DNA from: a virus
Lineage: Duplodnaviria; Caudoviricetes
Reading direction: 5' to 3' (one strand)
Length of the DNA stretch: 64,000 nucleotides
IMG/VR virus record: IMGVR_UViG_3300008110_007313
Translations under genes and position numbers: made by a program
Notes under the pieces: generated by a model
Database searches by the model: none
Seen by the model: the letters and a program-made list of their open reading frames with translations, nothing else
Told to the model about the DNA's origin: nothing
Shown: one piece after another, positions 43,569-46,024 of the stretch
Layout: each line of letters begins with the position of its first letter
Numbering within the stretch: the stretch's first letter is position 1

Positions 43569-44294
43569 ATGAAATTACGCATTACTATGATTGCCGCAAC
43601 TGTGATGTTGCTGGCAGGTTGTGCAACCAACAAAGACTATCAATTGTATGCTGAAACTCAGCAAAAAATTGCTCATGCTAACGCCATGGCAGAAACTGCA
43701 AGATATGCAGCACTAGCAGAAATTGCTAAGTCTGCAGATCCGGGTGCTAGAGTTGCAGCCGTTATGAGCATTAACTTTGGAGCGCAGGGCTCAAACGGTC
43801 TACGACCCAATCAGATTGCTGCCCCAAAAACGTTCGGAGACACTGCCCTACAATGGGCCAGCGTATTGCTACCTAGCGTAACCAGTTTGTATGGTATCAA
43901 CGCTAATCGTCAAGTCTCTATTACACAGAGCAATAATGCAACCGAAGTAGCTAAAAGCACAAATGCAACAATTGCCGCAATGAACAACAACATGGCCACA
44001 TCCAACACCGCCATAGCCAATTCAGGATTTACAGCCGTAACCGATGTAGCTAAGACTGGTATTACACAAGTAGGCACAACCGCGGCCGCTGGATTAACAC
44101 AAGTAGGCACAACCGCGGCCGCTGGATTAACAGCAGTTACCAATGTCAGCAATGCAGCTAACACCAGCATTCAAACGCTGGCCAATGCTTTAAAAGACAT
44201 TCAACCTAACATTACCACAACTACTACCACAACTACTACCACTAATAATCAATGCGGTAGTAACACAGCAGGTGGATCTGTTAACTGTCCATAA
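43569..44294 (+). CDS. Lipoprotein with an Ala/Thr-rich repeat region
   Basis: Lipobox LLAGC; exact 33-bp tandem duplication at 44064-44129 (TQVGTTAAAGL x2). Confidence 0.8.
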   Translation: MKLRITMIAATVMLLAGCATNKDYQLYAETQQKIAHANAMAETARYAALAEIAKSADPGARVAAVMSINFGAQGSNGLRPNQIAAPKTFGDTALQWASVLLPSVTSLYGINANRQVSITQSNNATEVAKSTNATIAAMNNNMATSNTAIANSGFTAVTDVAKTGITQVGTTAAAGLTQVGTTAAAGLTAVTNVSNAANTSIQTLANALKDIQPNITTTTTTTTTTNNQCGSNTAGGSVNCP

Positions 44295-44295
44295 G

Positions 44296-44318
44296 AAAGC
44301 CCCGAAAGGGGCTTTTTT
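44296..44318 (+). terminator. Rho-independent terminator
   Basis: AAAGCCCC-GAAA-GGGGCTTTTTT right after the stop. Confidence 0.9.
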
Positions 44319-44319
44319 G

Positions 44320-44820
44320 TATCAAGTCACTCTAACCCATAATATCCAATATAAACGGATTGCGATGCAATCCAAGCTTCGCCTTTGGCTCGCTTATTTT
44401 TAAACAAACTCAGTGAGATATTTCGCTAGATTGTGACGCCATACGACACCCAGATTCTGGGCGTCAAGACATTCGCTGAGTTGCTCAGCCACACTTGTGA
44501 CAATAGGTATTTGGATTGCATGTCTCTGGGCTCTGTACCTTACCCCACCTACTACGATTTTTAAGAGAACTTCGGTGTCATCTGTTCTCATGGACATATT
44601 GCATCTAAGTCAGCTCTCGCTGCACTCAACCTGTACGACTATGCAAACGTAAAACCCACAGGGGCAACATTTCAAGGCATCTCAAGTCGTGGCTTGAGGT
44701 AGTGCATAGAAGTCTTTTGCGGAGGAAAAGAAATGGTTGCCGTCACACATCAGAACGGATTCACCAGCAGTATTTTAGCCCGGCCTGCCAACCTTGAGTC
44801 ACGCTTTTTACTACAATGTC
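44320..44820. ncRNA. ~500-nt non-coding, hairpin-rich island (large ncRNA or origin candidate)
   Basis: No credible ORF; at least 7 stems (see findings). Confidence 0.4.
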
Positions 44821-44876
44821 TAAGTATACAGGCGAACCAAAATGATCACAAATGATCTTTTGGTCAACTTTGCCTT

Positions 44877-45101
44877 TCAAGAAATCCTGGTGATTCCACT
44901 GACCACTGAGTCTTTGCCGTATTGTCCTTGCAACAACAGCTTGGCCATGGCAGGACTTTTTGCAAAAACTGCCACGTCGATGCTGGTATTATAGTCGGGA
45001 TTCTTTACTCGCACTCGAGCTTGATAGACTTGAAATCCTGGAGCCACAGATTCATTGAGATTGTACTGTGAACCGGTTGCTTTGGTTGCATACTGTTTCA
45101 T
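44877..45101 (-). CDS. Hypothetical small protein
   Basis: 74 aa, ATGA-coupled; contains LNE. Confidence 0.6.
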   Translation of the reverse strand: MKQYATKATGSQYNLNESVAPGFQVYQARVRVKNPDYNTSIDVAVFAKSPAMAKLLLQGQYGKDSVVSGITRIS

Positions 45102-46024
45102 TTTTTACGTCCTGATTTCATGTTGGCACACCAGTGATACATCTTGGCTCGTTCACCTGATGCGTTCTTGGCACGACGACGCAGATCAGTTACTGATCCG
45201 TTGCAACTAGCGCCTGCACGTTTCACACGTCCTGGACGGCTCTTGCCTCGGACTTTGCCATCAGCAAAGTTTTCAGTTAGCGTTTGTGCAAATTTTAAAG
45301 CTGCTTCCAGGTCTGCACGGCTAAATGGTCGAAGTTCTCCTCGAGCAACATCTGCTCTTATGTCATCAATTGTATAATCAACAAATTGTGTTTCTACCCC
45401 GCCAGTTTCATCTGGTCCTACAAGTTCTTGTTCGCTGTCAAAACGTCCGCGACAATCATAAGCTGAACCGTCAGGTGCCACAATATACACATGATCAATG
45501 CGATAGTCTTCGTCATCCTTGGCTTCTTCTTCCCAGCCAACATGTGCTTTTAATTTCCAATCTGGGTGTAATTTTTTCAATGCCAAAGCCATGACATGGC
45601 AGTGACCTGTCATGTAATCTGGAGAAGCAGTATCTTCTTTGATGTAGACATTTTGCAAGGCAGCAGCCACACCAGGATGCAAGGGTTGTGGCCAATGGCC
45701 CAGTTCTACCCAACAGTAGTCTTGCCATTCATTGTCAGGCCGCGGTTCAAATTCTTTTGGCACTGTGCCAATAAATGTGACATATTTGGCATTTTCGCCA
45801 ATACGCTTTAGTTCAATGGGACCAGTGTAACCGCCTTCTTCTGCAAGTTCACGTTTGGCACATTGTTCCAGCGACTCGCCGGGTTTTCTGCCACCACCCC
45901 AGGCTGCCCATAACCCACCGTCATTGATTGAGTCGCTGCGTTGTTGTAGGCCGTAACGCCCTGTGTCCTCTGCGTAGAGCACAATGCCAGCGGCTTGTTG
46001 TTCTGCAAATTCTTTTGCTCTCAT
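45098..46024 (-). CDS. Nudix hydrolase fused to a Cys-His-Asp domain and a basic C-terminal tail
   Basis: Nudix box GGRKPGESLEQCAKRELAEEGG; GHC...DHVY...YDCRG; N-terminus MRAKEFAE. Confidence 0.85.
   Translation of the reverse strand: MRAKEFAEQQAAGIVLYAEDTGRYGLQQRSDSINDGGLWAAWGGGRKPGESLEQCAKRELAEEGGYTGPIELKRIGENAKYVTFIGTVPKEFEPRPDNEWQDYCWVELGHWPQPLHPGVAAALQNVYIKEDTASPDYMTGHCHVMALALKKLHPDWKLKAHVGWEEEAKDDEDYRIDHVYIVAPDGSAYDCRGRFDSEQELVGPDETGGVETQFVDYTIDDIRADVARGELRPFSRADLEAALKFAQTLTENFADGKVRGKSRPGRVKRAGASCNGSVTDLRRRAKNASGERAKMYHWCANMKSGRKK

What the first reader, a model, noticed from the sequence alone, without database searches (positions are those of the whole stretch)
44320..44851. ~500-nt non-coding island dense in stems: candidate large ncRNA or replication origin
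This is the longest gene-free stretch in the window. Stems: GGATTGC/GCAATCC (44357-44373); GACGCCCAG/CTGGGTGTC with a G-U pair on the minus strand (44445-44465); GCTGAG/CTCAGC (44475-44489); GAGAAC/GTTCTC (44565-44589); CTATGCA/TGCATAG (44639-44709) enclosing CTCAAG/CTTGAG (44681-44698); CTTTT/AAAAG (44714-44730). A TTGTGA-N17-TATACT promoter (44851-44823) points into it on the minus strand, and the 44296 hairpin could terminate it. It also holds GCGAAGC (minus strand, 44376-44382), a known stable ssDNA mini-hairpin of some phage origins and promoters.
Basis: partly seen in the sequence, partly recalled or inferred. Interest (0 to 1): 0.65.

Follow-up and report, generated by a model that had tools for sequence, protein, structure and literature searches.

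The report
Stand-alone twin-box phage RNA gene
The gene-free gap is a real gene for a folded, knotted non-coding RNA of about 465 bases in an uncultured giant freshwater phage. It is a divergent second copy of a largely uncatalogued phage RNA family, and its job is still unknown.

Summary

**What it is.** It is an RNA gene on the minus strand, about 44816 to 44350. Its promoter motif is conserved in roughly half of the relatives.
- I found relatives in 47 IMG/VR stretches (42 distinct), many from 140-354 kb phage contigs.
- Across 32 aligned relatives, 79 proposed base pairs are about 94% paired, and 46 show compensating double changes.
- Both arms of a core pseudoknot are supported.
- G-U pairs and the promoter direction fix the strand as minus.

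**Family.** No Rfam family matches. However, covariance models built from this RNA hit the RNAs that carry Rfam Polynucleobacter-1 (RF01718), at the matching places (best E 3e-9 for the 5' domain, 1.5e-5 for the twin-box module). Three large phage records carry both types at distant sites. I therefore read this RNA as a divergent paralog without the neighbouring nuclease gene. The scan had already noted this family on other DNA.

**Twin boxes.** Two 6-7-letter boxes flank a hairpin. They carry the same word in 34 of 34 relatives, across 6 words and about 10 switches on the tree. The window RNA is also a recombinant, with its crossover at the invariant core.

**Rejected readings.** The replication-origin and small-protein readings are not supported.

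**Open.** The function is unknown.

The parts
44835..44846 (-). Upstream promoter element ATCATTTTGGTT. In the window it overlaps the 3' arm of a hairpin (about 44838-44866) that probably ends the upstream 74-aa operon.
   Evidence: The motif ATCATTTTGG(A/C/T)T recurs just upstream of the -10-like box in about 16 of 39 homologs. The hairpin appears in the fold.
44823..44830 (-). -10-like box TGTATACT. The inferred transcription start is near 44816.
   Evidence: Consensus scan. TGTATAAT or TGTATACT is conserved 17-50 nt upstream of the conserved RNA 5' end in about half of the homologs. The start site is inferred, not measured.
44639..44805 (-). 5' domain with the layout of Polynucleobacter-1. 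It holds leader AAGG, hairpin H1 (44764-44789), hairpin H2 with a k-turn-like loop UUCUGAUGUGUGA (44735-44765), hairpin H3 (44714-44730), and helix H4 (44703-44709 with 44639-44645). H4 closes a three-way junction with CACUACC, hairpin P5 (44681-44698), GAUGCC and hairpin P6 (44645-44672).
   Evidence: 34 pairs, 94.1% paired, 25 with changes on both sides, 0 of 500 shuffles as high. Model R3, built from this domain, hits sister RNAs at the RF01718 position with best E 3.3e-9.
44609..44638 (-). Hinge with invariant GGUUG, plus a variable hairpin that is absent in part of the family.
   Evidence: Alignments A2 and A5.
44500..44602 (-). Pseudoknotted core. Helix Ha is 44593-44602 with 44518-44524. 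Hairpin P-h is 44565-44589. Junction UUAAAAAUC is 44556-44564. Helix Hb is 44547-44555 with 44500-44508 and crosses Ha. Hairpin P-i is 44528-44545, with the invariant loop AAGGUACAGA.
   Evidence: Ha: 7 of 7 pairs have double changes. Hb: 9 pairs, 97% paired, 4 with double changes. A block of about 40 nt is invariant in 32 sequences.
44421..44493 (-). Twin-box module. It holds a weakly supported closing helix (44488-44493 with 44432-44437), mini-hairpin GAGCAACUC (44478-44486), box 1 AGCGAAU (44471-44477), the inter-box hairpin (44444-44466) and box 2 AGCGAAA (44421-44427).
   Evidence: The box words are identical in 34 of 34 relatives, with 6 words. About 10 word changes are needed on a tree built without the box columns. 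Model R2 hits sister RNAs just downstream of their core, best E 1.5e-5.
44357..44395 (-). 3' hairpin pair. HpB is a perfect 7-bp hairpin (44357-44373) followed by GUUUAUAUU, and is the likely 3' end.
   Evidence: The same two-hairpin module is present in most, but not all, homologs and in sister RNAs. It was flagged as terminator-like on the minus strand. The U tract is weak, so its role as a terminator is inferred.
44295..44318 (.). GC-rich hairpin with T and A runs on either side. It is the terminator of the + strand 250-aa gene and a possible backstop for the RNA.
   Evidence: Sequence and folds.
44400..44597 (-). 65-aa ORF. It is not a gene.
   Evidence: Not conserved, frameshifted or stopped in relatives, and shows no codon-position bias. 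No Pfam or PHROG hit.

Best explanation
**What is shown.**
- Window 44350-44816, minus strand, is a stand-alone gene for a structured non-coding RNA of about 465 nt, in an uncultured giant (jumbo) freshwater phage.
- The RNA has four parts: a 5' domain with the layout of the Rfam Polynucleobacter-1 motif, a nearly invariant pseudoknotted core, a twin-box module in which the same 6-7-nt word sits on each side of a hairpin, and a 3' hairpin pair.
- It is a divergent paralog of the long RNAs whose 5' third is Polynucleobacter-1. It lacks the neighbouring GIY-YIG nuclease gene that earlier scan notes report beside those RNAs.

**What is inferred.**
- It is transcribed from its own promoter and acts in trans as a stable RNA.
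- The invariant core is the working centre, either a binding site or a catalytic site.
- The two identical boxes are two equivalent docking sites, read by one symmetric or twice-used partner. My preferred guess is a dimeric protein specific to each paralog. I put that particular mechanism at only about 0.3.

The confidence of 0.8 applies to the identity as an RNA gene of this family, not to the mechanism.
For: **Conservation.**
- The gap is more conserved than the flanking genes: 93% against 74-87% in L003.
- A 19-mer from the core is found in 47 IMG/VR stretches.

**Structure.**
- 79 pairs are about 94% paired and 46 have compensating double changes. Sliding the partners by 1-3 columns drops pairing to 32-51%.
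- Both arms of the pseudoknot covary.

**Strand.** 93.8% of cells are canonical on the minus strand against 83.1% on the plus strand, with 291 G-U cells.

**Independent gene.**
- The promoter motif is conserved.
- Neighbouring genes differ in identity and in strand. No gene family is adjacent in more than 11 of 42 loci.

**Family link.**
- R3 and R2 hit sister RNAs at matching places.
- L184 is an intermediate form.
- Both types occur in G001, G006 and G008 at distant sites.

**Boxes.** They are identical in 34 of 34 relatives over about 10 word switches. These include G-to-A changes in both boxes inside otherwise similar modules.

**Module independence.** The window's 5' domain and core are 95-99% identical to L003. 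Its twin-box module is 60% identical to L003's but 93-100% identical to those of L004 and L096.
Against:
- No Rfam family matches.
- Sequence-only nhmmer finds no link to the sister RNAs, and most cross-family model hits are weak (E 0.01-1).
- The 3' hairpin lacks a good U tract, so the 3' end is uncertain.
- Nothing identifies a partner. The RNA holds no complement to the boxes, no third column covaries with them, and neither the boxes nor their complement recur in the 64-kb window.
- Paralogs in one genome carry different words. This argues against a single shared reader.
- Part of the box co-inheritance comes from recombination of the whole 3' part, not from point changes.
Confidence: 0.8

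Rival explanations
1. The RNA processes itself or is processed. The two identical boxes are two equivalent cleavage or joining sites. They release or circularise the 50-55-nt inter-box unit, in the way that type III antitoxin repeats or CRISPR repeats bound a unit. The invariant core would be the catalytic or recruiting part.
For: - Identical words at both ends of a structured unit are what site-specific processing at both ends would need.
- The pseudoknotted core is invariant.
- From my own knowledge: phage mimics of type III antitoxin RNA are known, and T4-like phages carry RNA ligase and kinase.
Against: - There is no internal guide complementary to the boxes.
- No known ribozyme family matches.
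- No nuclease is consistently nearby.
- There are no read data to show ends.
Confidence: 0.15
2. The RNA is guide-like. Each box pairs with the same short sequence in an outside nucleic acid that is present twice or visited twice. Phages with different words would then address different targets.
For: - The words change together between close relatives.
- The 3' part carrying the twin-box module recombines independently of the 5' domain and core.
- Paralogs in one genome have different words.
Against: - Only 6 words were seen here and about 8 in the sister family. All are purine-rich and differ mostly by transitions. That looks more like a structural or protein-read motif than a free guide.
- Neither the box complement nor the boxes themselves are enriched in the window.
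- A 6-7-nt pairing is weak.
Confidence: 0.12
3. The RNA forms an RNA-only homo-oligomer, as ROOL, GOLLD and OLE do. Invariant loops such as AAGGUACAGA (palindromic GUAC) would be the contacts between copies.
For: - It is a large, ornate, phage-borne RNA with invariant loop sequences.
- There is precedent in PMC12286853.
- The sister core has the palindromes GGUACC and CUCGAG.
Against: - The loops are invariant, so covariation cannot test this.
- Oligomerisation does not explain identical direct repeats.
- ROOL and GOLLD models do not match.
Confidence: 0.12
4. The boxes are realignment sites for a polymerase that copies the inter-box segment repeatedly. Precedents are the telomerase RNA template ends and the repeated ends of the DRT2 template.
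For: Of the precedents I know, this mechanism is the one that strictly requires two identical words that change together (my own knowledge of telomerase and DRT2).
Against: - No reverse transcriptase (PF00078) is found in 5 records that carry one or both RNA types, 4 of them at least 92% complete.
- The inter-box segment is a conserved hairpin and not coding-like. An in-frame reading from box 1 to box 2 exists in the window, but the 55-nt inter-box spacing I counted by eye in L003 (alignment) would break that frame.
Confidence: 0.04
5. The stretch is a replication origin, or a promoter whose transcript primes replication, like T4 oriF and oriG. The boxes would then be DNA-level direct repeats for an initiator.
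For: - A promoter points into a gene-free stretch.
- Direct repeats that co-evolve resemble iterons.
Against: - Only two short repeats are present.
- There is no AT-rich tract and no skew change.
- Selection acts on RNA base pairs, including G-U pairs.
- The same phage genomes carry two such loci.
Confidence: 0.03
6. The stretch encodes a small protein (the 65-aa ORF), or it is a cis-acting untranslated region of a neighbouring gene.
For: An ATG-started 65-aa ORF exists, and the RNA follows a minus-strand operon.
Against: - The ORF is not conserved.
- Neighbouring genes differ in identity and orientation among homologs.
- The RNA has its own conserved promoter motif.
Confidence: 0.02

Closest known systems
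Polynucleobacter-1 RNA motif (Rfam RF01718; Weinberg et al. 2010, PMC2864571), together with the uncatalogued long RNAs whose 5' third it forms
   Same: - The 5' elements come in the same order: a 5-bp hairpin whose loop starts with GCC, a second hairpin, a third hairpin, then ACU, then a closing helix around CACUAYC, a hairpin, GAYG and another hairpin.
- Downstream, both have a twin-box module of the form ACUC-box ... hairpin ... AAUCU-box, and a 3' hairpin with a GAG...CGAA loop.
- Cross-family model hits fall at matching places.
- Both types occur in the same phage genomes.
   Different: - The RF01718 model gives no match at E up to 10.
- The invariant core differs: GGUAAGGUACAGAGCCCAGA here, against CUCGAGGUACCGGACAACCGCC in the sister RNAs.
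- The box words differ.
- There is no adjacent GIY-YIG nuclease gene.
- It is rarer: 47 contigs against at least 120.
GOLLD (RF01998) and ROOL (RF03087), large ornate phage-associated RNAs
   Same: They are also large (over 400 nt), multi-domain, pseudoknotted RNAs carried by phages, with their own transcription and no known function. They are known to form RNA-only oligomers (PMC12286853).
   Different: No model match. The architecture is different. They have no twin boxes. This RNA is not next to tRNA genes in the window; the tRNAs are 42 kb away.
T4 oriF/oriG-type origins primed by a promoter transcript
   Same: A promoter directs transcription into a non-coding stretch of a T4-like phage.
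   Different: Here the RNA structure itself is under selection. No unwinding element or iteron array is present.
Telomerase RNA and DRT2 ncRNA template ends
   Same: They have two identical short words in one RNA that must change together.
   Different: No reverse transcriptase is found in the phage genomes. The segment between the boxes is a conserved hairpin.

Membership tests
Rfam RF01718 Polynucleobacter-1 | Covariance-model score at or above the gathering cut-off of 37 bits | tested here: not met
   There is no RF01718 match at E up to 10 in window 44200-45000 or in 15 homolog loci. The model scores 79-119 bits on sister RNAs.
Rfam RF01718 Polynucleobacter-1 | Secondary-structure layout: three hairpins followed by a closing helix around two hairpins, with CACUAYC and GAYG in the junction | tested here: met
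   The same layout is supported by covariation in this family (compare the consensus). Model R3 hits L184 (E 3.3e-9), L180 (1.7e-4), L133 (0.14) and L256 (0.52). The L133 and L256 hits overlap their RF01718 matches. The L184 and L180 hits lie upstream of the sister-type core, where the RF01718 domain sits.
Extended twin-box phage RNA (uncatalogued; named in earlier notes of this scan) | Two identical short boxes flanking a hairpin, each preceded by CUC or UCU | tested here: met
   Identical in 34 of 34 relatives. Model R2 hits 12 of 20 sister loci at E up to 1, best 1.5e-5, just downstream of their core.
Extended twin-box phage RNA (uncatalogued) | Pseudoknotted conserved core between the 5' domain and the twin-box module | tested here: inconclusive
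   The pseudoknot is well supported in this family. I did not establish its equivalent in sister RNAs. Only AGGUAC is shared between the two cores.
Extended twin-box phage RNA (uncatalogued) | Position directly downstream of a small GIY-YIG nuclease gene | tested here: not met
   In the window the upstream genes are a 74-aa ORF with no Pfam or PHROG family and a 308-aa NUDIX protein. I did not scan the neighbours in the other 41 loci for nuclease families, but no gene cluster is adjacent in more than 11 of 42 loci.
GOLLD, ROOL, HEARO, OLE, tmRNA, RNase P, group I and II introns (Rfam) | A covariance-model match | tested here: not met
   Gathering-threshold scan of the whole window, and a scan of the region at E up to 10. 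ARAGORN finds no tmRNA.
Phage or plasmid replication origin | Iteron array, AT-rich unwinding element, skew change | tested here: not met
   Origin activity itself cannot be tested with these tools.
Protein-coding gene (65-aa ORF) | The frame is conserved and substitutions are biased to third codon positions | tested here: not met

The most novel reading that the evidence does not exclude
The twin-box module is a portable specificity cassette on an invariant RNA engine. The phage would then make a programmable RNA, or an RNA-protein machine, that reads one 6-7-letter code twice. For example, it might act on a target with a direct repeat, or be cut and rejoined at both boxes. Phages would carry two mutually orthogonal versions, one per paralog. 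That would be a new functional class of phage RNA.
Probability: 0.2. Interest if true: 0.9.

Novelty: new variant of a known kind. Interest (0 to 1): 0.7.

Why it matters
- Large, complex non-coding RNAs with strong covariation are rare, and each one solved so far has revealed new biology.
- This RNA family is widespread in uncultured giant freshwater phages. Only a third of the sister form is catalogued, and the form found here is invisible to Rfam.
- This report shows three things:
  - Phages keep two diverged paralogs.
  - Each paralog has its own invariant core and its own box word.
  - The 3' part carrying the twin-box module recombines independently of the rest of the RNA.
- Together these give concrete handles for finding the partner and the function: box swaps, pull-downs and oligomer tests.

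Tried and rejected
- **Rfam:** the whole window at gathering cut-offs, and the region at E up to 10, gave only two tRNAs and chance hits. A Thr_leader hit at 44209-44321 is a Thr-codon run plus a terminator.
- **ARAGORN:** no tmRNA.
- **Cultured phages (INPHARED, blastn):** no match for the region, for the RNA, or for a sister RNA.
- **Genome searches:** no genome is held for this window.
- **nhmmer:** a profile of this family against sister loci gave no hit.
- **Model R1 (core plus twin-box) with default filters:** one weak sister hit, E 0.11.
- **Partner for the boxes:**
  - No third column covaries with them.
  - No 7-nt complement exists inside the RNA; it was found in 1 of 32 sequences.
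  - Neither the boxes nor their complement recur in the window.
- **Reverse transcriptase:** none in 5 phage records.
- **Tertiary pair GGUA with UACC:** not supported, because sister RNAs with CACUAUCC keep the same core.
- **Window-only complementarities:** an 11-nt match (44365-44375 with 44511-44521) and a CUGAG/CUCAG match are not conserved in relatives.
- **Tag-like frame:** a 16-codon frame runs from box 1 to the UAG of box 2 in the window. The 55-nt inter-box spacing I counted by eye in L003 (alignment) would break it.
- **Gene context:** no protein family is consistently adjacent.

Full report
**Observation**

The stretch 44295-44876 lies between two converging gene ends. On the + strand a 250-aa gene stops at 44294 and is followed by a GC-rich hairpin at 44296-44318. 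On the - strand a 74-aa ORF (44877-45101) stops at 44877, behind a 308-aa NUDIX protein. It is the longest stretch of the window without an ORF of at least 90 aa. Both strands fold better than shuffled sequence, with z = -3.3 and -3.6. Rfam finds nothing there, either at its gathering cut-offs or at E up to 10. The window is phage-like: it encodes a family B DNA polymerase, a ClpB-like ATPase, radical SAM enzymes, a 1760-aa polyvalent protein and two tRNAs. No genome is held for it, and no cultured phage matches.

**Conservation**

Protein-anchored loci from IMG/VR showed that the gap itself is conserved. It is 93% identical over 380 nt in L003, where the flanking genes are 74-87% identical. 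It is 76.5% identical over 456 nt in L004. A 19-mer from the best-conserved block (GGTAAGGTACAGAGCCCAG) occurs in 47 IMG/VR stretches, 42 of them distinct. Many come from contigs of 140-354 kb.

**It is an RNA, on the minus strand**

- In a 34-sequence alignment, RNAalifold found 50 pairs, 28 with compensatory changes.
- I then curated the structure on two cleaner sub-alignments of 32 sequences.
  - The 5' domain has 34 pairs. They are 94.1% paired, 25 have changes on both sides, and 0 of 500 shuffles reach this.
  - The 3' half has 45 pairs. They are 93.6% paired and 21 have double changes.
- Sliding the partners by 1-3 columns drops pairing to 32-51%.
- Two helices cross. Ha (44593-44602 with 44518-44524) has 7 of 7 pairs with double changes. 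Hb (44547-44555 with 44500-44508) is 97% paired and 4 of its 9 pairs have double changes. The core is therefore a pseudoknot.
- Read on the minus strand, 93.8% of cells are standard pairs. On the plus strand the figure is 83.1%. The difference comes from 291 G-U cells.
- The 65-aa ORF (44400-44597, minus strand) is not conserved. A start codon is present in 4 of 34 relatives, most have frameshifts or stops, and variable columns fall 47/46/43 across the three codon positions.

**Gene boundaries**

- A TGTATAAT or TGTATACT box, often preceded by ATCATTTTGG(A/C/T)T, lies 17-50 nt upstream of the conserved RNA 5' end in about half of the homologs.
- In the window these elements are at 44823-44830 and 44835-44846. 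The start near 44816 is inferred.
- Most relatives end with two hairpins. The other is a perfect 7-8-bp hairpin (44357-44373). Its U tract is weak, so termination there is inferred.
- Neighbouring genes differ in identity and in strand between loci. No gene family is adjacent in more than 11 of 42 loci. This fits a stand-alone, trans-acting RNA gene.

**Relationship to known RNAs**

Earlier notes of this scan described long "twin-box" RNAs in other giant freshwater phages. According to those notes, the first third of these RNAs is Rfam Polynucleobacter-1 (RF01718), and they usually sit behind a GIY-YIG nuclease gene. I used this as a lead and tested it.

- RF01718 does not match the window or 15 homolog loci.
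- Whole IMG/VR records that hold this RNA also hold an RF01718 RNA far away:

| Record | This RNA | RF01718 RNA |
|---|---|---|
| G001 | about 293 kb | 74.4 kb |
| G006 | 136.6 kb | 6.6 kb |
| G008 | 238 kb | 25.6 kb |

- The sister RNAs share the following, in the same order: CACUAYC, a hairpin, GAYG; an AGGUAC-containing core; a module of the form ACUC-box ... hairpin ... AAUCU-box; and a 3' hairpin with a GAG...CGAA loop.
- Sequence-only nhmmer sees no link. Covariance models built from this family do:
  - The 5'-domain model R3 hits sister loci at the RF01718 position: L184 at E 3.3e-9, L180 at 1.7e-4, and L133 at 0.14 overlapping its RF01718 match.
  - The twin-box model R2 hits 12 of 20 sister loci just downstream of their core, best E 1.5e-5. 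These E-values are rough.
- L184 combines this family's k-turn-like hairpin with the sister-type core, so it is an intermediate.
- I conclude that the window RNA is a divergent paralog of that family, without the nuclease. It is not a member of RF01718 as Rfam defines it.
- The sister core 22-mer occurs in at least 120 contigs. This type occurs in 47.
- Only one paper in the library mentions Polynucleobacter-1, and it lists the motif without a function.

**Twin boxes**

- Box 1 (44471-44477) and box 2 (44421-44427) flank a hairpin (44444-44466).
- In all 34 relatives the variable word is the same in both boxes. There are six words: AGCGAA, AGCAAA, AACAAA, AGAUGAA, GGAUGAA and AGCGAG.
- A tree built without the box columns needs about 10 word changes, where 5 is the minimum possible.
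- Some of these are single G-to-A changes in both boxes inside otherwise similar modules, for example L121 against L127 and L093 against L110.
- The sister family shows the same behaviour with RGAURAN words.
- I found no partner for the boxes:
  - No third column covaries with them.
  - There is no complement inside the RNA.
  - Neither the boxes nor their complement recur in the window.
- Paralogs in one genome carry different words: AGCGAA against GGAUGAA in G001, GGAUGAA against AGAUGAA in G006, and AGAUGAA against GGAUGAA in G008.
- No reverse transcriptase is present in five records that carry one or both RNA types, four of them at least 92% complete. This argues against a phage-encoded template-jumping mechanism.

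**Mosaic structure**

| Compared with | 5' domain and core | Twin-box module |
|---|---|---|
| L003, L131 | 95-99% identical | 53-60% identical |
| L004, L096, L117, L119, L120 | 62-73% identical | 93-100% identical |

The RNA gene is therefore recombinant, with the crossover at the invariant core. The conservative reading is that the 40-nt invariant block serves as a crossover point in mosaic phage genomes. It also means that the twin-box module works with a foreign 5' domain and core, so the two parts are functionally separable.

**Mechanism**

What is shown is a stand-alone, structured, pseudoknotted RNA gene on the minus strand. It has paralogs, twin boxes under selection to be identical, and modular recombination.

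What is inferred is that it is a stable trans-acting RNA. Its invariant core would be the working centre, and its two boxes would be equivalent docking sites for a symmetric or twice-used partner. My preferred partner is a dimeric protein specific to each paralog, at about 0.3.

The rivals are listed below. No tool here could separate the first four.

| Rival | Confidence |
|---|---|
| Processing at both boxes | 0.15 |
| Guide-like pairing to an outside nucleic acid | 0.12 |
| RNA-only oligomer, like ROOL and GOLLD (PMC12286853) | 0.12 |
| Polymerase realignment sites | 0.04 |
| Replication origin | 0.03 |
| Small protein or untranslated region of a neighbour | 0.02 |

The origin reading fails on sequence grounds. 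There are no iterons, no AT-rich tract and no skew change.

**Host**

The only hints are weak. One short contig holding the RNA is binned in a Polynucleobacter MAG. A betaproteobacterial-type permuted tmRNA lies about 1 kb from the RNA in L111.

**Verdict**

The ncRNA reading is supported and the origin reading is not. This is a new, Rfam-invisible variant of a partly catalogued phage RNA family whose function is unknown.

Noticed in passing
window 45098-45280 (- strand), C-terminus of the 308-aa NUDIX protein: The last ~60 residues (ending MYHWCANM...) match at 70-90% nucleotide identity in hundreds of IMG/VR contigs. The domain is attached to different N-terminal parts and has no Pfam family.
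   Followed up: partly
window 45098-46024 and 44877-45101 (- strand); L003 and L004 ORFs: Several neighbouring ORFs begin with MRA(K/Q/S/N)EF. Earlier scan notes read this as a T4-like capsid-targeting tag. I did not test it.
   Followed up: no
L111:1154-1483 (+): A permuted (two-piece) tmRNA of betaproteobacterial type (RF04321, 61.5 bits) lies about 1 kb downstream of a copy of this RNA. It hints at the host group and at clustering of stable-RNA genes.
   Followed up: no
L184:2659-3021: A sister RNA combines this family's k-turn-like hairpin (CCGUUCUGAUGUGUGACGG) with the sister-type core, so it is an intermediate between the two paralog families.
   Followed up: partly
window 44365-44375 and 44511-44521: There is a perfect 11-nt complementarity between the 5' arm of the terminal hairpin and the 3' strand of core helix Ha plus its linker. 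It is not present in relatives, so it is probably chance or a window-specific alternative fold.
   Followed up: partly
window 44838-44866 (- strand): An 11-bp hairpin sits directly after the 74-aa ORF. It is probably that operon's terminator. Its 3' arm doubles as the conserved upstream promoter element of the RNA gene.
   Followed up: no
window 44209-44321 (+): A weak Thr_leader hit (28 bits against a cut-off of 55) is caused by a run of Thr codons (ACC ACA ACT) at the end of the 250-aa gene plus its terminator. It is not a leader.
   Followed up: yes
window 44735-44765 (- strand): The loop UUCUGAUGUGUGA of hairpin H2 could form a k-loop, with tandem G-A pairs and box C/D-like UGAUG...UGA. 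It is conserved in most but not all subtypes.
   Followed up: no
L257, L258 (genome contigs): The core 19-mer occurs in two short MAG contigs. One is binned as Bacteroidetes (Lake Erken) and one as Polynucleobacter sp. Both are probably mis-binned phage fragments.
   Followed up: no
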